64,000 bases of DNA from an uncultured Candidatus Poseidoniales archaeon (GTDB lineage: Archaea; Thermoplasmatota; Poseidoniia; Poseidoniales; Thalassarchaeaceae), in assembly GCA_964576865.1 (NCBI GenBank), contig CAZNVK010000002.1, forward strand, positions 9,692 through 73,691, in the 5' to 3' direction. The position numbers and the translations under genes are program-made. Under the pieces are notes generated by a model that searched no databases, was not told where the DNA came from, and saw only the letters and a list, made by a program, of their open reading frames with translations. This document shows, piece after piece, positions 7,710 through 17,039 of the stretch (position 1 is the stretch's first letter; each line of letters opens with the position of its first letter).

Positions 7710-8498
7710 GTGCCGCGCGTGCAGTTCCTCGGGACGGGCAATGCCCACTCTCCTTCGGGTCGGATGCACGCGCTGGCTTGTCTCGATGGCAAGATTCTGG
7801 TAGACGCGCCGCCAACACTGATGCCACAACTACGGCGCGCCGGCATCGATCCGGGTGATATCGAGCATCTGCTGTTCACCCATTGGCATGCCGACCACAT
7901 GTTTGGCTTCCCATTCCTGATGCTCGAGCGCAAATATGTCACCACACCTGAGACTCCACTCTCGGTTCATTGCAGGCCGGGCGGAGCAGAGATTCTGACA
8001 GGCCTGTGCGAGACAGGTTTCCCCGGAAGTCTGCTTGAATTCATCGAGGGTGACGTGGATTGGGACGAGGCGGAGAGCGGCACCCTCGAGGCGACGGGGT
8101 GGAACTACGAGAGATTCCCCGTCAGCCACGTCCCCGCAACCAATCCGCATGGTTACCTTTTGACTCACGAGAGTGGTTTCAGCCTCTTGCACTGCGGGGA
8201 CTCCGGCCCGTGCGAAGGCATCGAATCACGAGCCGCACGGGCTGACGCCATCCTCGTCGAAATGGGCGTTCCCAATTTCGTCAACAGCCCACATCACCAC
8301 ACTCCTAACCAAGTAATCGCCCTGGCCAAGCGCCATCCAAATGCGATGATTCTAGTGACTCACACCTTCGCCGATGGCGAGGAGGGGAGTGGGGGATTCG
8401 CCAAGCCGGAACTCGGTGGGAACATCGTCCAACTCGAGGATGGAGATGAACTCTCCATTACAGAAAATGGAGAGTTTTCTTTGTTAAAAATTGATTAG
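7710..8498 (+). CDS. MBL-fold metallo-hydrolase
   Basis: GTG start. VQFLGTGNA.. N-terminus and HxHxDH motif (THWHADH). Confidence 0.7.
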   Translation: MPRVQFLGTGNAHSPSGRMHALACLDGKILVDAPPTLMPQLRRAGIDPGDIEHLLFTHWHADHMFGFPFLMLERKYVTTPETPLSVHCRPGGAEILTGLCETGFPGSLLEFIEGDVDWDEAESGTLEATGWNYERFPVSHVPATNPHGYLLTHESGFSLLHCGDSGPCEGIESRAARADAILVEMGVPNFVNSPHHHTPNQVIALAKRHPNAMILVTHTFADGEEGSGGFAKPELGGNIVQLEDGDELSITENGEFSLLKID

Positions 8499-8639
8499 AA
8501 AATATAACTTCTATAAATAAGAAGAGGTTCAATATCGGCTTCCAATCAATCGTTCAACTTCGATATTGGGCACGAATCGGGCGGTCCGGACCTGTCCGAT
8601 CCGCCCGTCCCGGCCGCACCTCGGCCAGACCCACAGCGC

Positions 8640-8730
8640 GGCCGGTGAAAAAATTAAACCAGAGTAAAATTGATTTTCGGAAACCGATGTGCTGAATTGT
8701 TATTATCTCCGGTTTCCGACATCGATCAAC
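8640..8730. other. candidate origin core upstream of orc1/cdc6: AT-rich stretch with an inverted GGAAAC-containing 10-mer pair
   Basis: TCGGAAACCG (8677..8686) and CGGTTTCCGA (8710..8719) flank a 23-bp AT-rich spacer. Further AT-rich runs lie at 8481..8525 and 8646..8675. The site is directly upstream of orc1/cdc6. Confidence 0.35.
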
Positions 8731-8900
8731 CTCAATCAATATGTATCACAGAAGATTGTGAATCATCCCATCTTTCAACATGAGTCCGGGAACTTTCATT
8801 ACCTCGAACGCCTTCGTGGGGAATCCGCGTTCGCCGCCGATGACTCAGAGACATCGATGAGGTAGTGGGCATGGATTGGGCAACGGTTGTGTGATAAGAA

Positions 8901-10139
8901 ATGGAGGGAAATATTTTCGAGAAGATTTTGGGACAAGATTCCCTCTTCTTGGATAGAAAGGCCTTCGATCACGCTTTCGAACCGACCTCTCTTCCTCACC
9001 GCGATAGGGAAGTTGAGGCTCTGGTTCGCAACCTTGTCGACGCTCTCAATGGACACATTCCCTCGAACATGTTGCTCTACGGCGTGCCCGGGAGTGGCAA
9101 GACTGTGGTTACCAGATTCGTTCTCGGCCAACTGCGCGAGAAGGGGGAGGAATTGAGCAAGCCCGTGCGCACGTATGAGATAAATTGCCGGCAGATCGAC
9201 ACGCGCTATCGGGTGGTTCAGACTCTTGCAAGTCGGCTGGCTCAGCGTGGGGATGTGCCAATTCCGTTCACCGGTTGGCCGACCGATCGAGTCCTCGAGC
9301 ATCTGGTTGAGAGGATGGATCGCGCTGGAGGGGTTCACATCATCGTTCTGGACGAGATCGACAACCTTGTCGAGCGCGCAGGAGACAATCTACTGTACAA
9401 TCTGACGAGTCTGAATACCATTCTGCAGCGCTCGCGTTGTTGCATCATCGGAATCAGCAATGATCTGCATTTCACTCAATTGCTTGACCCGAGGGTCTCT
9501 GGTCGCTTGGGTCAGGAGGATCTGATCTTCCACCCATACGGAGCGACCGAGATCACGGACATTCTCACCGCACGTGCTGGGACAGGATTGCGTGAGGATG
9601 TCCTAGAGAATGGAGTCATTCAGTTGTGCGCGGCGCTCGCAGCCCAAGAGCACGGCGATGCGCGCCGCGCCCTCGACCTTCTGCGCATCTCGGTCCAGAA
9701 GGCTGAGCAACGCTCGCAGTTGAAGGTCGACCCAAGACATGTGCGTTTGGCGCAGTCACAATTGGAGCACGATCAGGTCACACCGGTGCTGCAGACTTTG
9801 CCGTTGCACCAGAAACTCGTGCTCTTCGCGATCCGAATCAATGAGGATAACGGACTTCGCAATATCTCGACCGGCGAGGTGTACCGAACCTATTCCGACG
9901 CTTGCTTGAACGTCAACGTCGAACCGCTCACACCTCGCCGAATCTCTACCCTGCTCAACGAGCTCGACACGCTCGGCATGATCATGGCACGAAATGTCAG
10001 TAAGGGTCGAGGCGGCCGCAGCAAGCAGGTCAATTCGGCGATTCCGAAGACGATCGATGCAGTCACCACGATGAGCGATGCCGACCCACTCATCGCAGAG
10101 GCTGCTCGCTGCCGCTACCGATTGCAGAGCCATCTGTGA
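8901..10139 (+). CDS. cdc6: Orc1/Cdc6 replication initiator
   Basis: Walker A GVPGSGKT, Walker B IIVLDEID, and a C-terminal winged helix. ATG at 8901. Confidence 0.9.
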   Translation: MEGNIFEKILGQDSLFLDRKAFDHAFEPTSLPHRDREVEALVRNLVDALNGHIPSNMLLYGVPGSGKTVVTRFVLGQLREKGEELSKPVRTYEINCRQIDTRYRVVQTLASRLAQRGDVPIPFTGWPTDRVLEHLVERMDRAGGVHIIVLDEIDNLVERAGDNLLYNLTSLNTILQRSRCCIIGISNDLHFTQLLDPRVSGRLGQEDLIFHPYGATEITDILTARAGTGLREDVLENGVIQLCAALAAQEHGDARRALDLLRISVQKAEQRSQLKVDPRHVRLAQSQLEHDQVTPVLQTLPLHQKLVLFAIRINEDNGLRNISTGEVYRTYSDACLNVNVEPLTPRRISTLLNELDTLGMIMARNVSKGRGGRSKQVNSAIPKTIDAVTTMSDADPLIAEAARCRYRLQSHL

Positions 10140-10147
10140 AATCTCAT

Positions 10148-10276
10148 CACACTCTGAACGGCCAGTTAACCGACTCTGATTGGCCTATGAACCGACTCTG
10201 ATTGGCCTGTGAACCGACTCTGATTGGCCTGTGAACCGACTCTGATTGGATTGGGAATCGACTCTGAACGGCCCAT
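10148..10276 (+). repeat. tandem direct repeats, 22-bp period (GAACCGACTCTGATTGGCCTGT), about 5 to 6 copies
   Basis: Units read directly at 10167, 10189, 10211 (identical to the previous unit), 10233 and 10255, plus a degenerate unit at 10148. The array starts 9 bp after the cdc6 stop. Confidence 0.85.
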
Positions 10277-10335
10277 CAAATCGAGGCCCTTCAGGGCCTC
10301 AACGGTTAAACCGAGTCCACAGGTCGCCGCACCCG

Positions 10336-10866
10336 ATGTCACTCGCTGACAATGACTGGTACTCGGCCCTCACCCGCCCGAGCCGCACGGCTTCGACGGC
10401 GATGCTGCTGCTCGGTGGATGGGTGCTCCTGCTCACCATCGTGAACCTAGTCATCGGTGCATATTCTCCTGGATTCAAGGTTCTGTGGCTCGGATTCCTC
10501 AGCGACGGCGCACTCGGTGGTGTCTACGTGGCTCACGATGGCGTGTCCGTCGTCGCAGACGATATCGTGTTCGGTGTCCTCGGTCTAGCGGTTGCTGGAT
10601 TGGGCTGGTTCGGACTAGGTCAGGCTGTCGAGGGCGGCGCGGTCGCTGCCATCAAGGGCCTGCCGGACTGTCTGAACGGACTTTTCTCGAGTGAGAATGG
10701 CATTCGCAAGACCCTCGCCGACTGGCTCATCGTCGGTGCAATCATCTTCTATCTGGCTTGGTCAATGCAGAACAATACCTGGGTCGACCCCGGTGTCTTC
10801 GCGGTCAGTGTTGCACCGTTCGCATTCGGTGTCGGGCTGAACTTGCTCGACAAGGCCGAAGCGTGA
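10336..10866 (+). CDS. integral membrane protein, function unknown
   Basis: ORF 10246..10866 trimmed to ATG 10336 because the first 30 codons are the tandem repeats. It has 4 to 5 hydrophobic helices. Confidence 0.45.
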   Translation: MSLADNDWYSALTRPSRTASTAMLLLGGWVLLLTIVNLVIGAYSPGFKVLWLGFLSDGALGGVYVAHDGVSVVADDIVFGVLGLAVAGLGWFGLGQAVEGGAVAAIKGLPDCLNGLFSSENGIRKTLADWLIVGAIIFYLAWSMQNNTWVDPGVFAVSVAPFAFGVGLNLLDKAEA

Positions 10867-10931
10867 ACTCGGAAATCGGTACCATCGAACCGGCGCTCAG
10901 CCGGTTCGCAACCAATTCTCTGCGTTATTAC

Positions 10932-11945
10932 TCAAGTGCGGCCCATCGCTGCGAGTAAGTCTCGGCAACGAGCTTTCGAATCGGCGCCGGTCCACCTCAG
11001 CACGACGCCTTTGCCAGGTTGGCCGTAGAGGACGGCGGCACCGAGTGGGGCAAGCGGATGCAGAAGCAGAGGCGCGAGATCCTCTTCCCCTTCGACATCG
11101 ATTATACAACTTCGACCGTGCTCTCGCCACGCGTGCATAGCTGCCTCACAGGCGAGGAATAATTCGGCGCTGAGTTGGCCTGCGGGGTTTGAACAGGTTC
11201 GAACGGCGTCGTAGAGTGAATGGTCGATGGTCGAAGCCTCCGCCCACTCTTCTCGCTTGGTTCGACCATCGATGAGGGCGATGTCGGCTGGACTTCCCAA
11301 ATCCTGCAGAGTCTTGACCGTGACATCGCCGACAGCGATTACAGGGCCGTGGCTTCCGAAAATCTCCTCCAACACGGCCCGCATCGCAACGCTTGGATCA
11401 TCCTCAGGACCCTCGAATAAACGCCCAAATGGATCCTTGAGATTCGATTCAACCTCGCGCGTCATCAAGAGCGAGGCTTGGCCAGCATCGTCGGGGAGGT
11501 AGGCCTCGCCATCTGAATCGATTTCGCCCGCACGCACGCGCGAGCTCGAAATCGGCGCACCATCGTGCGCCGCCACATGCTCGACAACGATCACCTCCAG
11601 CGCGGTCAAGCCATTGGCTGCCCGCGCCGAATTAATCCGCTGACACCCAGCCAGCGTCTCCGGCGTGCATAGAATCGCAGTCGCCGCCTCATGCCAAGGC
11701 GCCGGCCCATCGTCATCCTCGAGCGCATGCACGCTCACCGAGTCAGCCTTCTCGCCCATAGCGGCGAGAAGATTTGCCGAGCGATCGGCCCAAGATTCGA
11801 TCCGCGAATCCTTCGAATTCGCCAAACGATCGCTCGAAATCCACACTTCCAACCGCGCGCACTCAGCTAACCCTCGTTCAATGAGTGCGCGATGCCCAGC
11901 ATGGAAGCGGTCGAAAGTTCCGCCCACCAAGCCCAGTGTGTGCAT
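10932..11945 (-). CDS. fusion of phosphopantetheine adenylyltransferase (archaeal type) and DUF359 (GTP-dependent dephospho-CoA kinase family)
   Basis: The N-terminal half has GGTFDRFHAGH and ISSSRVR (cytidylyltransferase fold). The C-terminal half has AVGDV..IDGRTKR..NPAG..GEEDLA..LYGQPGKGVV, as I recall for DUF359. ATG at 11945 (TTG at 11951). Confidence 0.7.
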   Translation of the reverse strand: MHTLGLVGGTFDRFHAGHRALIERGLAECARLEVWISSDRLANSKDSRIESWADRSANLLAAMGEKADSVSVHALEDDDGPAPWHEAATAILCTPETLAGCQRINSARAANGLTALEVIVVEHVAAHDGAPISSSRVRAGEIDSDGEAYLPDDAGQASLLMTREVESNLKDPFGRLFEGPEDDPSVAMRAVLEEIFGSHGPVIAVGDVTVKTLQDLGSPADIALIDGRTKREEWAEASTIDHSLYDAVRTCSNPAGQLSAELFLACEAAMHAWREHGRSCIIDVEGEEDLAPLLLHPLAPLGAAVLYGQPGKGVVLRWTGADSKARCRDLLAAMGRT

Positions 11946-11981
11946 CGTCAATCAGCCTGAGTGTGAAGTCTTGAGGACTTT

Positions 11982-12301
11982 GGAAAAGGAGTGTGCCCCG
12001 GGGCGTAACGGTGACCTTCATCGCAATGCTCGGGCACCTGACCCACCCCGGGACGTCTGTTGGACTGTGGGGTTGTCCCGTAAGTCATTCCGCTCTCTTC
12101 CGTCGGCGGTCGTCCGGGGACCCATCACAATCCGACCACATGTGTTGCTCCGAAGATCATAGCTCAGCAGCGGCTCACTTCGGTCTTCGACATGCGGCAA
12201 ATCCCGTTCCGTGGTACCGTGGTTCATCCTACTAACTCCGGCTGGGGCTTTCGTCGGCACGGTGTTGCCGGTCGGGCGTCAATTCGTTCCGGGGTCCCTT
12301 C
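11982..12301 (-). ncRNA. rnpB: candidate RNase P RNA (type-A-like); ends approximate
   Basis: This 430-bp GC-rich gap has no credible ORF. On the minus strand I read UUGACGCCC..GGGUCAGG (P2-like, compare E. coli CUGACC/GGUCAG) and the hairpin CGGCA-ACACCG-UGCCG (P3-like). Next come GACGAAAGCCCC (compare GAGGAAAGUCC), GUAGGAUGAA, GGAGCAA and GAAUGACU. The last segment is ACAGACGUCCCGGGGUGGGUC (compare ACAGAACCCGGCUUAUCGGUC). An oligo-U lies at the 3' end (about 11984). Confidence 0.45.
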
Positions 12302-12379
12302 ATGAACCTCTCGGAGAGAGGGGGGGAGGTCAAAACGCGATGTGAAAGTGAAAATTCTAGTTGAAAACGAGCGTTTTGG

Positions 12380-14995
12380 TCAGAATGCTCTGTGATCGCG
12401 CGAGAGGCCTTGGTGCCAGCCGGAACGGCGTAGGATGAGCCTCTCGCTGACGTGTGGGTCGCCGCTCATCGCCATCTCGGCGCTGAGCGGCGGCCAATTC
12501 TCGACCGGCTGAGCCAACCAACCCACGAGTGGATGGGTTCTGCCGGTCGTCGGCGAGCCACCGCTGGTGGCTCGGTCAAGTGAATCCAAAAGATCGAGAA
12601 CGGGGGCTGCACCCTCGGGCAGCGTCCCTCTCTCATGTCGCGCGCGCAAGCGTCGCGCGAGGGCATTTCGAATTTCAAGCGAACATCCGGGATGCACTCG
12701 ATCTCGTAATCCCGGAGCGCTGCTCGCCTCGCCTTTCGGCCGCAGCACAGCTGCGGCCCAAGGAATCGGATTAGCGAATAACCAAACCAGAGCGTCCTCT
12801 TCGGCGAGCAGATTTGTCAACAATTCTGGAGCGAGCAGCGCCCACCAATCGAGAGGAAGCCTCTCAACAATTGCTTCAACCCCTTCGATCTCCATTTGTT
12901 TCCCATCCCGAATGCGCTCGACCAAAAGTGACCAGATTCGCAAATCATGGCTCATAGAAAATTTGCTCGCTCGCCGCAGAACTCCCTGCAAAACTGGCCC
13001 ATATTCAACAGCCGCGGGGCCATCTCCTCGGAACATCCAATCCACCGCCTGCAATGCTTCGAGCGAATCTGCAGGCGGATGAACCAACCATGCTTCCAAG
13101 GCCCAACGAACAAGGTCATTCTGCATTTCATCAGGCAACCAAGCCGCATTGCTCAGCAATTGCGCGGCCACCCAAGAAGCGCCCTCACTCGCTTGAGCCG
13201 GATCGGTCGCCGGCCGCGCCCGCAGAGCAATCTCAGGATCATCTCTCAGCATTCCGCGCAGTTTACCAGCGAAAATTTCGAGCACCCTTACCGGCGCCTC
13301 ATCAGCCACCTGAGCGAGCCTTTCGAGCGGTAAGTAATCCAAATCCAACAGCGCGATCCACTCAGAATCCAACCGCGCACGCAGCCGCTGCCATCGATGC
13401 CATCGCGTGCGCGCAGGCGAAGCAATCCAAGCCGCCAGAGGATAGCTCGCCTCCATCATATTCGACCAATCCTCATTCCCTTCAGGGTATTGTGCAATCG
13501 CAGAATCAAGCATCGAATCACCATCAGTACCGACCTCAGATGCTTCCTCAACCCCAAGCACAACCCAAGGCGAGAGTGCCTCCCCGCCACCAACCACCGA
13601 CTCCGGGCTCATCGGCACAGGGTCGACGAGGCGAACGGGCATGTCCCGCCCGCCTCGAGTTCGCAAACGCAGCCACGGCAGAGGACGTAAGGGGTCGACG
13701 GTCAGTTCGTCGAATATAGCGAGTGAAGAACGAGCGGAGGAAGCGAGAGTCAAGCGCAACGAAGGGTGTGGAATCAACGTCGTCAGCACATCATCGGGAA
13801 GCGTCTCGGGAATCTCCAGAACCAGTGGTGGGCGCTCCTCATCAGATACAGCCCATTCGATCAGAGAAGTAACCGCAATCGGCCCGAGTCCGCGAGTATC
13901 GAGCAAGCGAAGTGTCTTCTCCTCAGTCGAGAAACTCGCCTCCCCCCAATCCTTGCGAAAACGCCGCCATGTCGATTCCTCGGTCCTCACTCTACGCGTG
14001 GATGTCAGCCGTTCTCTGAGACTGTTGAGGCGACGCTTGCGCTCCGACGGGATGAGTCGTGGGTGGGCTCGTCGGATCCAAGCGTCGAGACAAGAAATGG
14101 GATATTCGTGCCCTGCTGCATCGAGACCTCCAAGGTCTGCGATGACCAGGGCATTCGCTCGTGCTGTTCGCAGCAGCATCGAGCGTGGCAATCGCTCCTC
14201 CATGATTGCGCATACTGGATCCTTGGGTCGGATGTCTGGCGATTGCTCGTGGCAGTTGCCTAATGTCCAGCCGCCGCGGTGGTGGCTGGCTTCTGGCAGC
14301 GGCGGGTCTGGTCGGTGGCTCGGGGCTTCGAACCAGATTCCAGGGGCCAGAGCCACCGGGCGATCGGCATCGACGAGGCGAGCGCGGACGATGCCAATCG
14401 TGTGGTTCTCTCCAGCATAAGCCGAGATGCTCTCAGGATCATGGCTCTGAGGGGGTTCTGGGAGCATCTCAAGGGAGCGCAGATCGAACCAGCGCGGTGA
14501 GCGCTCCCTCAGAACCGCCCAAGTCCATAAGACCCCTTCTCTTCCGGTGGAGCCTCCGTCACTAGACAAGACGCGAATTGGGCGGTCGGGAATCAAGACC
14601 AGAGGGCTGTCTATTGGAGCGAGAACCCCTATCAGAAGGTTAGCTCCATCGCGCGCTAGCAGACAGCATTTGTGCGCGGGTGAGGGTAACGGTGTTGCTT
14701 CCATCGCCCGCGCCAACTCATCGGAACGGATCGCTTCCCATCCTGCAGTCGTCAAATGGAGGCGCGCACCGCGGGCTCCGGCGGCTTGGTCACTGGCTAC
14801 CAGTCCATCGTTTCTCATTCGTCGGAGCTCCGCTGAAGCGTGCGGAATTCGCAATCCTGTATCGCGTGCGAGCACGCTGACAGTTTCGCCGCCATCCGTC
14901 ATTCGATCCAAGAGGCGGCGGCGGTGTCCACTCCGAATCCGCCGCAGTCCCTCCAAATCAGCGACAGGACCGCCTGATTGCGGGTCATCCGACAC
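12380..14995 (-). CDS. large (871 aa) orphan protein with N-terminal winged-helix (ArsR/MarR-like) domain
   Basis: GTG start at 14995, preceded by GGGAGGGGG about 6 nt upstream. The N-terminus reads ..VSVLARDTGLRIPHASAELRRMRNDGLVAS..RLHLTTAGW. I recognise no catalytic motif in the remaining ~770 aa. Confidence 0.6.
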   Translation of the reverse strand: MSDDPQSGGPVADLEGLRRIRSGHRRRLLDRMTDGGETVSVLARDTGLRIPHASAELRRMRNDGLVASDQAAGARGARLHLTTAGWEAIRSDELARAMEATPLPSPAHKCCLLARDGANLLIGVLAPIDSPLVLIPDRPIRVLSSDGGSTGREGVLWTWAVLRERSPRWFDLRSLEMLPEPPQSHDPESISAYAGENHTIGIVRARLVDADRPVALAPGIWFEAPSHRPDPPLPEASHHRGGWTLGNCHEQSPDIRPKDPVCAIMEERLPRSMLLRTARANALVIADLGGLDAAGHEYPISCLDAWIRRAHPRLIPSERKRRLNSLRERLTSTRRVRTEESTWRRFRKDWGEASFSTEEKTLRLLDTRGLGPIAVTSLIEWAVSDEERPPLVLEIPETLPDDVLTTLIPHPSLRLTLASSARSSLAIFDELTVDPLRPLPWLRLRTRGGRDMPVRLVDPVPMSPESVVGGGEALSPWVVLGVEEASEVGTDGDSMLDSAIAQYPEGNEDWSNMMEASYPLAAWIASPARTRWHRWQRLRARLDSEWIALLDLDYLPLERLAQVADEAPVRVLEIFAGKLRGMLRDDPEIALRARPATDPAQASEGASWVAAQLLSNAAWLPDEMQNDLVRWALEAWLVHPPADSLEALQAVDWMFRGDGPAAVEYGPVLQGVLRRASKFSMSHDLRIWSLLVERIRDGKQMEIEGVEAIVERLPLDWWALLAPELLTNLLAEEDALVWLFANPIPWAAAVLRPKGEASSAPGLRDRVHPGCSLEIRNALARRLRARHERGTLPEGAAPVLDLLDSLDRATSGGSPTTGRTHPLVGWLAQPVENWPPLSAEMAMSGDPHVSERLILRRSGWHQGLSRDHRAF

Positions 14996-15010
14996 TAAGC
15001 ACCCCCTCCC

Positions 15011-15236
15011 GATTCAATTAGTTAGAGAGTCCTAATTAAATTATGCTATTTCATTACATTTCCTTACAGATTTCTTATGGAAAACATAACAGTTTCATTT
15101 CCACACCGACTTTCTAGATGGAATCTACCGTAATTAGTGCAACAATCTGTAACGAAGAGAGGGTTTGAGTTGCAGAACTGTTATATCAACGCCTGCCGTC
15201 CTGTCGGTAACGGACTCGTAAAGCGGCCGTGATGAC
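15011..15236. other. AT-rich (about 35% G+C) intergenic region with ORB-like core; divergent promoter region and/or origin-like element
   Basis: Hand counts give 20/60 G+C for 15001-15060 and 21/60 for 15061-15120. The minus strand reads GTGGAAATGAAAC (15092..15104). The plus strand reads ATGGAAAAC (15077..15085). The minus strand reads GGAAATGTAATGAAA (15049..15063). Confidence 0.4.
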
Positions 15237-15254
15237 TTGGAGGATGGAACGAAG

Positions 15255-15530
15255 ATGAACTCGCAGAACCTGCGTGAACTGATTCGAAACTACCTATCAG
15301 AGCGGCCGCGGAACACCATCGAGATCTCGACCTGGCTATCCCGCCGGATCGACCCACAGAACAGCCCGGCGGATATCACGAGCATCCTAGAATCGGATGA
15401 GAAGATAATGCGTATCGGTACTGTTCGCAAGAGCGGCATGCGCCGCTCAGAATCCCCAGTATCGGAATGGGCATCGAGCGATTGGGTCGAGCATCACGAG
15501 AGGAAAAAGTCCGAAAGAAAGGAGAGCTGA
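15255..15530 (+). CDS. small winged-helix-like protein (91 aa)
   Basis: ATG 15255 is preceded by GGAGG (15239..15243). It is paralogous to the next gene (LRELIRNYLSERPRNTIEISTWL / LRQKIKKFLNERGEANTTEILEHV). Confidence 0.55.
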   Translation: MNSQNLRELIRNYLSERPRNTIEISTWLSRRIDPQNSPADITSILESDEKIMRIGTVRKSGMRRSESPVSEWASSDWVEHHERKKSERKES

Positions 15531-15532
15531 AC

Positions 15533-15787
15533 ATGCGCACAACAAGACTACGACAGAAGATTAAGAAATTCCTGAACGAGAGGGGCGAAGCCAATACTAC
15601 TGAGATCCTCGAACACGTCAATTCCACAATGCGCCACGGCACAACTCCACAACAGCTCGGCAATGTGCTCTCCAAGGACAAGGACATCCTCAAGGTTGCA
15701 ACGACCAAGCGTGGCGGCGCTCTCTCCGGCCGCTACGAGATCTGTGTCTGGACTCTGCGACCCGGTGTGCTCGACGGCGAGAATTAA
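15533..15787 (+). CDS. small winged-helix-like protein (84 aa), tandem paralog
   Basis: ATG 15533 lies 2 nt after the upstream stop and is preceded by AAGGAGAG. The ORF 15467..15787 was trimmed. Confidence 0.55.
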   Translation: MRTTRLRQKIKKFLNERGEANTTEILEHVNSTMRHGTTPQQLGNVLSKDKDILKVATTKRGGALSGRYEICVWTLRPGVLDGEN

Positions 15788-15820
15788 GCGGATTGAATCT
15801 GCCACAGAGTGAGAGTATAT

Positions 15821-15847
15821 CCTCCCACAACGCTCACGACGAACGCC
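15821..15847 (+). repeat. solo or degenerate left arm of the CCTCCCACAACG hairpin repeat family
   Basis: CCTCCCACAACGCTCACGACGAACGCC lies 34 bp after the stop of the + gene. No matching right arm is seen. Confidence 0.5.
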
Positions 15848-16019
15848 AAGATTGAGGGGCGTGGTAACTCTGTATTGGACCACTCTTACATTGAAATCGA
15901 TAGCCACTGAATCGAGATGATTGCCGCGGCGAGGTCTGACTTTCAGCTGCGCGGGAGTGCATTCAATCGCCGCGAAGCGGCTCCACTGAGCGCAGTCGCG
16001 CCCTAGAGGGTGCGACAGA

Positions 16020-17039
16020 TCAGGCCGAAGGCGCTTCGAGTTCTGTTGACCAATCGCCGGTTCGAGCGAGGCTATTCATTGCGGCTCGATGAGCGAAGGC
16101 ACCTTGGCTATCCTCATTCGAGCCGCTGGCCCAGGTCTGCAATGCGTGCGCGAGCAGGGCTCGCCCGTAGGAATACGAGAGTTGCCATGGGTGGTCGACG
16201 GCCATGCCATTCATCAGATTGAGATGGGCCGTCGCATCCTCATCCGATTGACCTCCAGAGAGGAATACGATTCCAGGGAGGTCGTGCGGGACGTGGTTGG
16301 TAAGGCAATCAACGGTCATCTGGGCGGCTTGTTCACGGCTGCCTTGGTCAGCGCAAGCCTTGCCGGGTAGAACCATGTTCGGCTTGAGCAGAGCACCGGG
16401 GATGTGGACGCCCTGAATCTCGCAGGCGGCAAAGGTTGCATCTAGGATTCTCGCGGTGACATCGTAGCAGGTCTGAGCGTCGTGGTCGCCATCCATCAGA
16501 ACCTCGGGTTCGATAATCGGAACCAGACCTTGCTCTTGACAGATCGCTGCGTATCGAGCGAGGGCATGGGCATTGGTTGAGATATTGGCCTCGCTCGGCA
16601 TTCCATCTCCGATTCGGATGACTGCTCGCCACTTAGCGAAGCGTGCGCCCATTGAGAAGTACTCCGCGCAGCGCTCGCGAAGACCATCGAGACCCTCGGT
16701 GATCTTCTCGCCAGCGTGACCGGCGAGTTCCTTGGCGCCGGTATCGACCTTGATTCCAGGGTGGACGCCTCGGCTGGCTAGGTATTCTGGAATCGGCGTG
16801 CCATCATCCATAGTCTGCCGAATGGTCTCATCGAAGAGGATGACACCGCTGATGGCCGACTCGTAGCCGCCGGTGGCGAAGATGTTCGAGCGATAGGCTC
16901 GCCGAGTCTCTGGAGATGGCTCTACACCGACGGCCTTGAGCCGATTTGACATCGTTCCATTACTCTCGTCGGCGGCGAGGATTCCTCTCCCCGGAGATAC
17001 CAATTCACGCGCTGTTTGTTCGAGTAGTTCAGTGTCCAT
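16020..17039 (-). CDS. fba: fructose-bisphosphate aldolase, class I (classical type)
   Basis: Trimmed to ATG 17039 (MDTELLEQTARELVSPGRGILAADES..). Class I FBA signature. Confidence 0.85.
   Translation of the reverse strand: MDTELLEQTARELVSPGRGILAADESNGTMSNRLKAVGVEPSPETRRAYRSNIFATGGYESAISGVILFDETIRQTMDDGTPIPEYLASRGVHPGIKVDTGAKELAGHAGEKITEGLDGLRERCAEYFSMGARFAKWRAVIRIGDGMPSEANISTNAHALARYAAICQEQGLVPIIEPEVLMDGDHDAQTCYDVTARILDATFAACEIQGVHIPGALLKPNMVLPGKACADQGSREQAAQMTVDCLTNHVPHDLPGIVFLSGGQSDEDATAHLNLMNGMAVDHPWQLSYSYGRALLAHALQTWASGSNEDSQGAFAHRAAMNSLARTGDWSTELEAPSA

What the first reader, a model, noticed from the sequence alone, without database searches (positions are those of the whole stretch)
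12380..15787. 35%-G+C gap with an ORB-like GTGGAAATGAAAC core, flanked by a large orphan wHTH protein and two small wHTH paralogs
Positions 15011-15236 are by far the most AT-rich segment I counted (20/60 and 21/60 G+C in two consecutive lines). They separate a divergently transcribed 871-aa protein from a two-gene operon of 91-aa and 84-aa winged-helix-like paralogs. In the 871-aa protein only the first ~100 aa are recognisable, as an ArsR/MarR-type winged helix. Each small gene has its own GGAG leader, and the two are spaced 2 nt apart.

The minus strand of the gap reads GTGGAAATGAAAC (15092-15104). From memory this is nearly the ORB core (..CAGTGGAAATGAAAC..). It faces a plus-strand ATGGAAAAC (15077-15085), with another GGAAATGTAATGAAA at 15049-15063.

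In Sulfolobus, one origin is served by a winged-helix initiator (WhiP) rather than Orc1. An AT-rich ORB-bearing region bracketed by three wHTH genes could therefore be an orphan origin-initiator module. It could also be a remnant of an integrated plasmid or virus replicon, or simply a strongly regulated divergent promoter. It lies only about 5 kb from orc1/cdc6, which argues against two independent chromosomal origins.
Basis: partly seen in the sequence, partly recalled or inferred. Interest (0 to 1): 0.6.

Follow-up and report, generated by a model that had tools for sequence, protein, structure and literature searches.

The report
Initiator-binding boxes at conserved archaeal promoter
This AT-rich gap is a deeply conserved two-way promoter of Marine Group II archaea that carries recognition boxes for the replication initiator Orc1, one of them embedded in the neighbouring gene. 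It is probably an initiator-controlled site, because the chromosome's main origin lies elsewhere.

Summary
The sequence features are real. The "orphan module" reading is not supported.

**The locus.** The genome is a Marine Group II archaeon (Poseidoniales). The 871-aa winged-helix protein and the DUF3860 gene(s) are a vertically inherited, order-specific pair. They were found in every Poseidoniales genome sampled, always divergent across a 200-260 bp gap and always about 5 kb from orc1.

**The gap.** It is a compact bidirectional promoter with two TATA boxes, inverted TGTAA boxes and one conserved mini-ORB (window 15070-15082, minus strand).

**The embedded ORB.** A full ORB with a G-string lies inside the 871-aa gene (14531-14551). 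It sits in a disordered linker, and its synonymous codon positions are frozen across the order.

**Other ORBs.** The same ORB occurs as an inverted pair between a nuclease gene and a ferredoxin gene. In two complete genomes, strand composition and gene orientation flip there. A single ORB also sits in front of mcm in 29 of 29 loci.

**Best reading.** This is an accessory, Orc1-bound regulatory ORB cluster, like the dp1 cluster of Pyrococcus, rather than an origin. Binding itself is inferred.

**Earlier work in this scan.** The scan found the same locus and boxes before in other Poseidoniales genomes (e1-4983337, e1-4597751, e1-1422388) and the distant origin (e1-5066256).

The parts
12380..14995 (-). 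Gene for the 871-aa Poseidoniales-specific protein ('BIG871'). It has an N-terminal ArsR-like winged helix (about aa 18-100), then about 750 aa with no detectable relatives: a beta-rich part, an alpha/beta part and a helical C-terminal half.
   Evidence: ORF and translation. No Pfam hit, and a weak ArsR HTH match at aa 20-72. AF2 model has pLDDT 74.6, and Foldseek hits only the winged helix. Found in 121/121 Poseidoniales genomes and 0/40 genomes of the sister families. Only 159 clusters match among 1.84 billion representatives.
14531..14551 (-). ORB-A, a full ORB with G-string (TCCACCGGAAGAGAAGGGGTC) embedded in the coding sequence. It encodes S-T-G-R-E-G-V in a disordered linker.
   Evidence: Sequence read directly. 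The position-weight-matrix (PWM) scan gives one hit per 20-kb locus, at the same place and strand, in 35/37 loci. Codon entropy is 0.71, 0.20 and 0.37 bits at S149, G151 and G154, against 1.58-2.53 bits at all 55 other conserved 4/6-fold columns. The linker has pLDDT below 50. It is the top-scoring ORB in the whole genome.
15033..15044 (-). Probable TATA box of the 871-aa gene (ATAATTTAATTA). An SD-like GGGAGGGGGT (15001-15010) and the GTG start (14995) follow.
   Evidence: Sequence. An A/T-rich block sits at the same position in the alignment of 33 intergenic regions. Promoter function is inferred.
15053..15068 (-). Two TGTAA boxes in 10-nt phase (TGTAAG 15063-15068, TGTAAT 15053-15058). The order-wide consensus is TGTAAC-N4-TGTAAC, directly after the mini-ORB.
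   Evidence: Alignment consensus 'T.tgTAA..aaaTgTAAc'. It forms a 13-nt, 92% complementary inverted repeat with 15144-15156.
15070..15082 (-). ORB-B, the orthologous mini-ORB. Here it is the partly degenerate TTCCATAAGAAAT (order consensus yTCCAGTGGAAAT). It lies 26-38 nt upstream of the 871-aa gene's TATA box.
   Evidence: TCCA..GGAAAT is nearly invariant at this alignment position across the three families. The window copy keeps the TTCC and GAA cores that Matsunaga et al. call perfectly conserved (PMC1904270).
15092..15104 (-). It is a clade-specific element just upstream of ORB-B and is not a complete ORB.
   Evidence: Exact copy confirmed and unique in the genome. Conserved as GGTGTnGAAATGAAAC only in this genus and neighbouring MGIIb genera; MGIIa has ATGTAAGTAAAAAG at this place.
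15111..15123 (-). Window-specific third TTCC...GAAA element (TTCCATCTAGAAA).
   Evidence: Not conserved even in the closest relatives (L034, L035).
15148..15153 (+). TGTAAC box on the other strand, about 30 nt upstream of the DUF3860 TATA box. It is the inverted partner of the boxes at 15053-15068.
   Evidence: GTTAC is invariant in the alignment. Inverted repeat I1.
15181..15186 (+). TATA box (TTATAT) of the DUF3860 operon.
   Evidence: ATATAA is invariant on the minus strand in 33 aligned loci. It lies 69 nt before the ATG at 15255.
15255..15530 (+). DUF3860 copy a (91 aa), a fast-evolving, lineage-specific tandem duplicate.
   Evidence: Pfam PF12976 E 2e-34. A separate second copy is detected only in some MGIIb genera; in the MGIIa loci and several MGIIb loci both queries hit one and the same gene. 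Identity among relatives is 28-86%.
15533..15787 (+). DUF3860 copy b (84 aa), a nearly invariant small winged-helix protein.
   Evidence: Pfam E 1e-41. PDB 2OD5 at E 3.6e-30, deposited as 'putative nucleic acid binding protein'. Identity is 66-100% across the order, while the 871-aa neighbour keeps only 24-30% between families. Homologs of 54-77% identity lie on 8 viral contigs near an SNF2 helicase and an RFC-like ATPase.

Best explanation
The block is a core, vertically inherited locus of Poseidoniales. An order-specific 871-aa winged-helix protein gene and one or two DUF3860 winged-helix genes are transcribed divergently from a 259-bp bidirectional promoter.

The gap is AT-rich mainly because it holds two TATA boxes and their operators. 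Beside the 871-aa gene's TATA box sits a mini-ORB followed by phased TGTAAC boxes. A complete ORB with a G-string lies about 540 bp downstream, written into the coding sequence of a disordered linker.

I read both ORBs as binding sites of Orc1/Cdc6, forming an accessory ORB cluster outside the origin. Bound initiator would tune transcription of the 871-aa gene, and perhaps of the divergent DUF3860 operon. This would parallel the ORB immediately upstream of the mcm promoter. The chromosome's main origin would be the inverted ORB pair in the nuclease/ferredoxin gap far away.

Shown: the conservation, positions and orientation of the boxes, the frozen codons, the synteny, the distribution, and the composition flips elsewhere.

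Inferred: that Orc1 is the binder, that binding regulates transcription, and which Orc1 paralog acts.
For: 1. Conserved mini-ORB at one alignment position of the gap across three families.
2. One full ORB per locus at the same codon positions in 35/37 loci. Synonymous sites are frozen only there: 0.2-0.7 bits against 1.6-2.5 bits at the other 55 conserved columns. This holds in genomes of 34-65% G+C. The peptide lies in a low-confidence linker.
3. The motif matches published ORBs. The Pyrococcus mini-ORB is TTCCAGTGGAACT with invariant TTCC and GAA. A haloarchaeal ORB reads ...CAGCGGAAACAGTGGGG... with a G-string.
4. Full ORBs are rare. Only four score 17 bits or more in 820 kb of the complete genome G027: the inverted pair, mcm and ORB-A.
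5. A single ORB sits 38-100 nt before mcm, on the gene's strand, in 29/29 loci. It lies about 25 nt before a TATA-like box, with an upstream mini-ORB. So single ORBs occupy promoter positions in this order.
6. The inverted ORB pair with outward G-strings is conserved in 28/30 loci. It coincides with the flip of strand-corrected GC3 skew and with the minimum of cumulative gene orientation in G027 and in G003. No flip occurs at the orc1/871-aa locus of G027.
7. ORB-type inverted pairs also exist in a sister family that lacks both the 871-aa protein and DUF3860. The binder is therefore older than these proteins.
8. Precedent: Cdc6/Orc1 binds a second ORB cluster inside the dp1 coding sequence next to cdc6 in Thermococcales. 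A downstream ORB cluster negatively regulates oriC2 in Haloarcula hispanica.
Against: - No binding or expression data exist.
- All ORBs found lie on the sense strand of the adjacent gene, so an RNA-level role for ORB-A is not formally excluded.
- The window's own mini-ORB departs from the consensus at three central positions, including the first G of GGAAA. In this genus the site may be weaker or partly replaced by the neighbouring GTGGAAATGAAAC element.
- The skew signals are weak and local, fading about 150 kb from the flip. They were tested in only two genomes.
- The mcm ORB is absent from the sister family. It is thus co-distributed with the two order-specific proteins.
- Closeness to orc1 and an AT-rich gap next to ORBs are also what a weak or dormant origin would look like.
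Confidence: 0.55

Rival explanations
1. A second (minor, conditional or dormant) replication origin. Orc1 bound at ORB-A and ORB-B would melt the AT-rich gap and load MCM there.
For: ORB plus mini-ORB lie next to the most AT-rich DNA of the neighbourhood, about 5 kb from orc1. ORB-A's G-string points away from the gap, as for the left box of a canonical origin. Multiple and dormant origins are known in archaea (abstract of PMC4595724).
Against: - There is no inverted partner on the DUF3860 side, and both boxes have the same orientation. Wu et al. accept only inverted ORB repeats as candidate origins and call a single-ORB region 'deficient'.
- The AT-richness is accounted for by two conserved TATA boxes.
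- GC3 skew and gene orientation do not flip at 518-524 kb in G027, while both flip at the inverted pair.
- Single ORBs demonstrably occur at a promoter, that of mcm.
Confidence: 0.2
2. The TTCCAGTGGAAA-type boxes at this locus and before mcm are bound by an order-specific winged-helix protein encoded here (the 871-aa protein or DUF3860) and not by Orc1. The resemblance to ORBs would reflect a shared palindromic core.
For: The core TTCCA-N-TGGAA is a palindrome of the kind winged-helix dimers bind. Three winged-helix genes flank the site. The mcm ORB was found in all 29 Poseidoniales loci but in none of 20 loci of the sister family that lacks both proteins.
Against: The boxes carry the asymmetric G-string at the ORB-typical spacing, which a symmetric dimer site does not need. 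The same element forms origin-like inverted pairs in a sister family without either protein. The motif matches experimentally defined Orc1 sites of distant archaea. The TGTAAC boxes are better candidates for the local regulators.
Confidence: 0.15
3. A remnant of an integrated plasmid or virus replicon, or an orphan origin-initiator module of foreign origin.
For: G+C is lower in the gap. DUF3860 homologs occur on viral contigs.
Against: The synteny from the sulfite-reductase-like gene through orc1 to this block and, in most MGIIb loci, on to FBA-glpX is conserved; the part from orc1 to the DUF3860 gene is kept in all 36 fetched loci that reach that far, from three families. Both gene families are present in all Poseidoniales genomes sampled. 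There are no PHROG hits, and no integrase or repeats flank the block. G+C of the genes equals that of the genome.
Confidence: 0.02

Closest known systems
Second ORB cluster inside the dp1 (PolD small subunit) gene next to cdc6/orc1 in Pyrococcus and Thermococcus (Matsunaga et al. 2007, PMC1904270)
   Same: ORB and mini-ORB repeats lie within a few kb of orc1. One lies inside a protein-coding sequence. The cluster is conserved across a whole order. In Pyrococcus it is bound by Cdc6/Orc1 in vivo and in vitro although it is not the unwinding site.
   Different: In Pyrococcus the cluster flanks a cdc6 gene that also has oriC on its other side. Here no ORB lies upstream of orc1, and the candidate origin is hundreds of kb away. 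The host gene here is an order-specific winged-helix protein, not a polymerase subunit. One box sits in a promoter. Binding is not shown here.
Canonical archaeal oriC1-type origins (Sulfolobus oriC1, Aeropyrum, haloarchaeal oriC1)
   Same: Same recognition element: a dyad core TTCCA..GGAAA, a spacer and a G-string. An AT-rich neighbour is present.
   Different: There is no inverted ORB pair around the AT-rich DNA. The site is not directly adjacent to orc1. No composition flip occurs here. The canonical architecture is found instead in the nuclease/ferredoxin gap of the same genomes.
Downstream ORB cluster that negatively regulates oriC2 in Haloarcula hispanica (Wu et al. 2014, cited in PMC4010727)
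   Same: An ORB cluster outside the origin proper, with a proposed regulatory role and not an initiating one.
   Different: That cluster lies next to its origin and its cdc6 gene. Here the distance to the candidate origin is 330-440 kb.
Orc1-2 of Sulfolobus as a global transcription regulator (PMC9738581) and, by analogy, bacterial DnaA boxes in promoters
   Same: An initiator-family protein uses its DNA-binding domains at promoters of other genes. The ORB before mcm and the mini-ORB before the 871-aa gene fit that pattern.
   Different: No DNA-damage link is shown. The motif here is the full origin-type ORB. Which of the two Orc1 paralogs acts is unknown.
Haloarchaeal oapABC origin-associated gene cluster (Pfeiffer et al. 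2019, PMC7002104)
   Same: A highly conserved, divergently transcribed cluster of uncharacterised genes tied to initiator-binding DNA.
   Different: oapABC directly flanks the canonical origin opposite the Orc gene. Homology to the proteins here was not tested. Here the boxes are not the main origin.

Membership tests
Archaeal replication origin (oriC, ORB/Orc1 type) | [quoted passage not shown] | tested here: not met
   ORB-A and ORB-B lie on the same strand. There is no plus-strand partner on the DUF3860 side. The criterion is taken from PMC3528665.
Archaeal replication origin (oriC, ORB/Orc1 type) | Directly adjacent to an orc1/cdc6 gene | tested here: not met
   orc1 ends at 10139. Two protein-coding genes (orf206 and the PPAT/DPCK fusion) and a 430-bp non-coding gap lie between it and the 871-aa gene. 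This feature is common but not universal.
Archaeal replication origin (oriC, ORB/Orc1 type) | Replication-associated switch of strand composition or gene orientation at the site | tested here: not met
   In G027 there is no flip at 518-524 kb. Both flips fall at 180-220 kb, where the inverted ORB pair lies. The signals are weak, and this locus was tested in one genome only.
Archaeal replication origin (oriC, ORB/Orc1 type) | Initiation of replication in vivo (marker frequency, 2D gels, ARS activity) | not testable with these tools
ORB / mini-ORB element (Orc1/Cdc6 recognition box) | Core with TTCC and GAA motifs (TTCCAGTGGAA-like dyad) | tested here: met
   ORB-A reads TCCACCGGAAG and ORB-B reads TTCCATAAGAAAT. 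The order consensus is TCCAGTGGAAAT. Compared with PMC1904270.
ORB / mini-ORB element (Orc1/Cdc6 recognition box) | G-rich string at a fixed distance from the core (full ORB) | tested here: met
   ORB-A has GGGG four nt after GGAAG, and the GGGG is kept in 34 of the 36 loci that have the motif column. ORB-B lacks it, so it is a mini-ORB.
ORB / mini-ORB element (Orc1/Cdc6 recognition box) | Bound by Orc1/Cdc6 | not testable with these tools
   Inferred only from motif identity, rarity and context.
Pfam DUF3860 (PF12976) | Score above the curated cut-off over the full-length model | tested here: met
   117.9 and 141.2 bits against a cut-off of 27. PDB 2OD5 at E 3.6e-30.
ArsR/SmtB family transcription regulators | Family model matched above its cut-off | tested here: not met
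   NF033788 scores 23 bits against a cut-off of 55, over aa 20-72 only. No Pfam hit. The fold resembles ArsR/MarR winged helices. The protein therefore has an ArsR-like fold but is not a family member.
Cdt1/WhiP or plasmid Rep initiators | Detectable sequence or structural similarity | tested here: not met
   No such hits in Pfam, NCBIfam, PHROGs, the PDB profile search or Foldseek.
Integrated mobile element | Variable presence among relatives, integrase or flanking repeats | tested here: not met
   Present at the same site in all 36 loci fetched, and both gene families occur in all Poseidoniales genomes sampled.

The most novel reading that the evidence does not exclude
The 871-aa winged-helix protein and the near-invariant DUF3860 protein are undescribed, Poseidoniales-specific replication or cell-cycle factors. 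Together with mcm they would form a small regulon under direct control of the initiator Orc1. The ORB written into the coding sequence would act as an intragenic sensor, a roadblock or looping partner of the promoter box, that ties their expression to initiator occupancy. DUF3860 would be borrowed by the viruses of these archaea for their own replication modules.
Probability: 0.3. Interest if true: 0.7.

Novelty: new variant of a known kind. Interest (0 to 1): 0.55.

Why it matters
Marine Group II archaea are among the most abundant archaea of the surface ocean and have never been cultured. Nothing is known experimentally about how they start or control replication.

This locus, read together with the mcm promoter box and the distant inverted pair, gives a concrete map of where the initiator probably binds. 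It suggests the following:
- The origin is uncoupled from orc1.
- Orc1 doubles as a transcription factor for mcm and for an order-specific gene pair.
- A protein-coding sequence has been held at the DNA level for the whole history of the order in order to keep an initiator box.

It also names two uncharacterised protein families as candidates for lineage-specific replication or chromosome functions. One of them has a solved structure (2OD5). All of this can be tested with recombinant proteins and synthetic DNA, without a culture.

Tried and rejected
- **Orc1-upstream gap (8499-8900).** I looked for ORBs there. No position-weight-matrix (PWM) hit appeared in any of 37 loci. The only conserved word is an unrelated GAGTCCGAGTCCCCCTCA-type element present in a subset of loci.
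- **Whole-genome GC skew of G027.** Half-sampling with raw skew was too noisy. Only strand-corrected third-position skew on contiguous sequence gave a usable signal.
- **G003 around its 871-aa locus.** The 'no flip at this locus' result therefore rests on G027 alone.
- **Function of the 871-aa protein beyond the winged helix.** Pfam, NCBIfam, PHROGs, a PDB profile search, Foldseek against PDB and an exhaustive representative search gave nothing outside its own family.
- **Rfam on 8000-16500.** No match at gathering threshold.
- **A larger ORB regulon.** In G000 only about six sites score well. I did not test the conservation of the thiolase/DEAD-helicase site or the C16 site.
- **Internal start after ORB-A.** I considered an internal translation start or an SD-like role for the GGGG of ORB-A. 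No conserved in-frame start follows, so I rejected this.
- **Third DUF3860 copy (C25).** It has unrelated neighbours and no ORB.

Full report
**What is there**

The window comes from a 1.65-Mb, 56% G+C, 85%-complete genome. Named homologs place it in Marine Group II, Candidatus Thalassarchaeaceae, order Poseidoniales.

The gene order around the finding is:
- orc1/cdc6, 8901-10139(+)
- a 206-aa ORF
- a PPAT/dephospho-CoA-kinase fusion, 10932-11951(-)
- a 430-bp non-coding gap
- the 871-aa ORF, 12380-14995(-)
- a 259-bp gap
- two small ORFs, 15255-15530 and 15533-15787(+)
- class I aldolase and GlpX on the minus strand

Two quantitative statements need correction. The lowest 200-nt window has 38% G+C, and the gap as a whole has 42%. 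A stretch at 39.5 kb is equally AT-rich.

**The proteins**

Both small proteins match Pfam DUF3860 far above its cut-off. The 84-aa one is 67% identical to PDB 2OD5, which was deposited as a putative nucleic-acid-binding protein from an uncultured marine organism. It models as a three-helix winged helix.

The 871-aa protein has no Pfam family. Only a weak ArsR-type match covers residues 20-72. An AlphaFold model built from 27 homologs has mean pLDDT 74.6. In it, only the N-terminal winged helix finds structural neighbours (ArsR/SmtB, MarR, the AspA centromere binder). The remaining ~750 residues match nothing.

An exhaustive search of 1.84 billion representatives found only 159 clusters. All are the same architecture or fragments of it.

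**Not orphan, not mobile**

The 871-aa protein was found in 121 of 121 Poseidoniales genomes sampled, spanning three families and 21 genera. It was found in none of 40 genomes of the sister families of the class. DUF3860 has exactly the same distribution.

In the 36 loci fetched from relatives the neighbourhood is conserved in order and orientation. It runs sulfite-reductase-like gene, metallo-beta-lactamase-fold gene, orc1, orf206, PPAT/DPCK, 871-aa gene, then divergent DUF3860. One locus ends at its contig's end before orc1.

The DUF3860 'b' copy is 66-100% identical across the order. The 871-aa neighbour keeps only 24-30% identity between families. The 'a' copy is a fast-evolving duplicate that is detected as a separate gene only in some MGIIb genera. 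This refutes the plasmid/virus-remnant and 'orphan module' readings.

**The gap is a conserved bidirectional promoter with an ORB-type box**

The gap is 200-260 bp in nearly all of these genomes and has lower G+C than its surroundings. An alignment of 33 gaps shows a fixed skeleton:
- an invariant TTATAT about 70 nt before the DUF3860 start
- an invariant GTTAC box
- a block yTCCAGTGGAAAT-nTGTAAC-nAAATGTAAC
- an A/T block about 45 nt before the 871-aa start

The TCCAGTGGAAAT core matches the published archaeal mini-ORB. The Pyrococcus mini-ORB is TTCCAGTGGAACT, with TTCC and GAA as invariant cores.

In the window the orthologous box is TTCCATAAGAAAT at 15070-15082(-). That 13-mer is conserved only in this genus and its nearest genera, and it lacks the TTCC half. 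It is unique in the genome, but its near-matches occur at chance frequency.

The TGTAA boxes on both strands form a 13-nt inverted repeat. Each sits 15-30 nt upstream of a TATA box. I take them to be operators of a local regulator. This is an inference.

**A full ORB inside the coding sequence**

A search for the core with mismatches showed a second box about 540 bp away, inside the 871-aa gene, at the same codons in nearly all relatives. Its consensus, TCCAsyGGAArnvrrGGGGk, is a complete ORB with a G-string at the usual spacing. For comparison, a published haloarchaeal ORB reads ...CAGCGGAAACAGTGGGG....

A position-weight matrix (PWM) built from these copies finds exactly one hit per 20-kb locus in 35 of 37 loci, always at this place and on this strand. 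It finds none upstream of orc1.

The box encodes S-x-G-x-x-G in an otherwise variable linker. That linker is modelled as disordered. Its codons are fixed as TCC, GGA and GGG in genomes ranging from 34 to 65% G+C.

Among 58 conserved columns of four- or six-fold degenerate residues, codon entropy is 1.58-2.53 bits everywhere except these three codons (0.71, 0.20 and 0.37 bits). This is direct evidence for selection on the DNA sequence itself. In the window the box is TCCACCGGAAGAGAAGGGGTC at 14531-14551(-). It is the best-scoring ORB of the whole genome.

**Where else the box occurs**

The next-best hits in the genome are an inverted pair 150 bp apart. They lie between a beta-CASP nuclease gene and a ferredoxin gene on another contig. 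The pair, with its G-strings pointing outward, is conserved upstream of that nuclease in 28 of 30 loci across the order.

Another hit lies just upstream of mcm. A single full ORB on the gene's strand sits 38-100 nt before mcm in 29 of 29 loci. It lies about 25 nt before a TATA-like box, with a mini-ORB further upstream.

In 820 kb of contiguous sequence of the complete same-genus genome G027, only four boxes score 17 bits or more. They are the pair (186.2 and 186.4 kb), mcm (307 kb) and the box in the 871-aa gene (519 kb).

**Where the origin probably is**

Raw skew was uninformative. Third-position GC skew corrected for gene strand flips sign in the 180-220 kb bins of G027. The cumulative gene-orientation curve has its minimum in the same bins, which is where the inverted pair lies. 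Nothing flips at 518-524 kb.

The same coincidence is seen in the complete MGIIa genome G003, where the flip falls at 180-220 kb and the pair lies at 203.7 and 203.9 kb. The signals are weak and local, but they are independent of the motif and were replicated in a second family.

I could not fetch the region around the 871-aa locus of G003.

**Who binds**

The mcm box is missing in a sister family that lacks both order-specific proteins. That keeps open the idea that one of them is the binder.

However, the same sister family (genus g22) has ORB-type motifs, including inverted pairs about 90 bp apart, while the reversed control pattern gave no hits. The asymmetric G-string is also an Orc1 hallmark. 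I therefore consider Orc1/Cdc6 the likely binder. The genome has two paralogs.

**Mechanism proposed**

Orc1 would occupy the mini-ORB next to the 871-aa gene's TATA box and the full ORB in the linker-coding DNA. Together they would form an accessory ORB cluster that modulates transcription of the 871-aa gene, and possibly of the divergent DUF3860 operon. The ORB in front of mcm would work in parallel.

The closest documented case is the ORB cluster inside dp1 next to cdc6 in Thermococcales. That cluster is bound by Cdc6/Orc1 in vivo without being the unwinding site. A regulatory ORB cluster is also described in Haloarcula hispanica.

A dormant or minor origin remains a real alternative (about 0.2). 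It would need an explanation for the missing inverted partner.

**DUF3860 in viruses**

Homologs of 54-77% identity lie on eight IMG/VR viral contigs that lack the cellular neighbours. There they sit among same-strand genes that include an SNF2 helicase and an RFC-like AAA+ ATPase. It points to a DNA-metabolism role for this near-invariant protein and away from a purely local regulatory one.

**Relation to earlier notes of this scan**

I consulted the notes only after I had found the boxes, the pair and the mcm site independently.
- Three earlier follow-ups on other Poseidoniales genomes described the same boxes at the same locus (e1-4983337, e1-4597751, e1-1422388).
- One described the nuclease/ferredoxin origin with a composition switch (e1-5066256).
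- One of them read the present locus as 'probably the chromosome's replication origin'. My data argue against that.

So the locus has been found before in this scan on other DNA. I found no published paper on it.

**Verdict**

It is a new variant of a known kind, namely ORB clusters outside the origin, including one inside a coding sequence. It has moderate to good interest because it makes replication control in an abundant uncultured lineage testable.

Noticed in passing
L070:6372-6553 (G000 contig C24); also L074-L103: An inverted pair of full ORBs with outward G-strings lies 144-165 bp apart, between a beta-CASP nuclease gene and a 4Fe-4S ferredoxin gene. It is conserved in 28/30 Poseidoniales loci. 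It coincides with the flip of GC3 skew and of gene orientation in two complete genomes. This is a likely oriC with no orc1 gene beside it.
   Followed up: yes
L073:5043-5072 (G000 C10:44042-44071, minus strand); L144-L173: A single full ORB sits 38-100 nt upstream of mcm on the gene's strand in 29/29 loci, with a mini-ORB about 55 nt further upstream and a TATA-like box about 25 nt downstream. This suggests that Orc1 controls mcm transcription. It was not found before mcm in 20 loci of the sister family.
   Followed up: yes
window 10151-10267: There are 5.3 tandem copies of a 22-bp unit (ACTCTGATTGGCCTGTGAACCG), 89% matching, starting 12 nt after the orc1 stop and running into the annotated start of the 206-aa ORF. 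In several relatives the orc1-orf206 gap is only about 25-110 nt, so the array is probably not conserved. Noted earlier in this scan (e1-3232042).
   Followed up: partly
window 11996-12197 (-): The 430-bp gap between PPAT/DPCK and the 871-aa gene keeps its size (about 360-460 nt) in most relatives. It gives a weak Rfam match to HgcG/Pab40, an archaeal H/ACA guide RNA (30 bits, E 1e-6 for this stretch, below the gathering score of 77). No RNase P match was found, contrary to an earlier first-reader guess (e1-3232045).
   Followed up: partly
window 8499-8900 and the same gap in L034-L069: The orc1-upstream gap has no ORB. In about 13 relatives it carries a conserved GAGTCCGAGTCCCCCTCATAAG-type element of unknown role. 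The window's own TCGGAAACCG inverted repeat (8677-8686 / 8710-8719) was not checked for conservation.
   Followed up: partly
L072:5407-5436 (G000 C12:22406) and G000 C16:20516: Two further good ORB matches (20-21 bits) lie in probable intergenic DNA, one between a thiolase gene and a DEAD-box helicase gene and one before a 320-aa gene. Their conservation was not tested.
   Followed up: no
L220-L227 (IMG/VR viral contigs): DUF3860 homologs (54-77% identity) lie in same-strand gene arrays with an SNF2-family helicase and an RFC-like AAA+ ATPase. These are probably viruses of Marine Group II archaea.
   Followed up: partly
orc1 coding sequence, about nt 963 (window about 9863); L034, L035, L043, L045, L052: The antisense strand of orc1 reads TCTCCGGTGGAAATGTT at the same codon position in 9 relatives. 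This is a mini-ORB-like word that may only reflect a conserved L-R-N-I-S-T-G-E peptide.
   Followed up: no
L249, L252, L253 (sister family, genus g22): ORB-type inverted pairs lie about 90 bp apart in genomes of the sister family that lack the 871-aa protein and DUF3860. These are candidate origins of that lineage. The neighbouring genes did not match orc1, mcm, the nuclease or the ferredoxin.
   Followed up: partly
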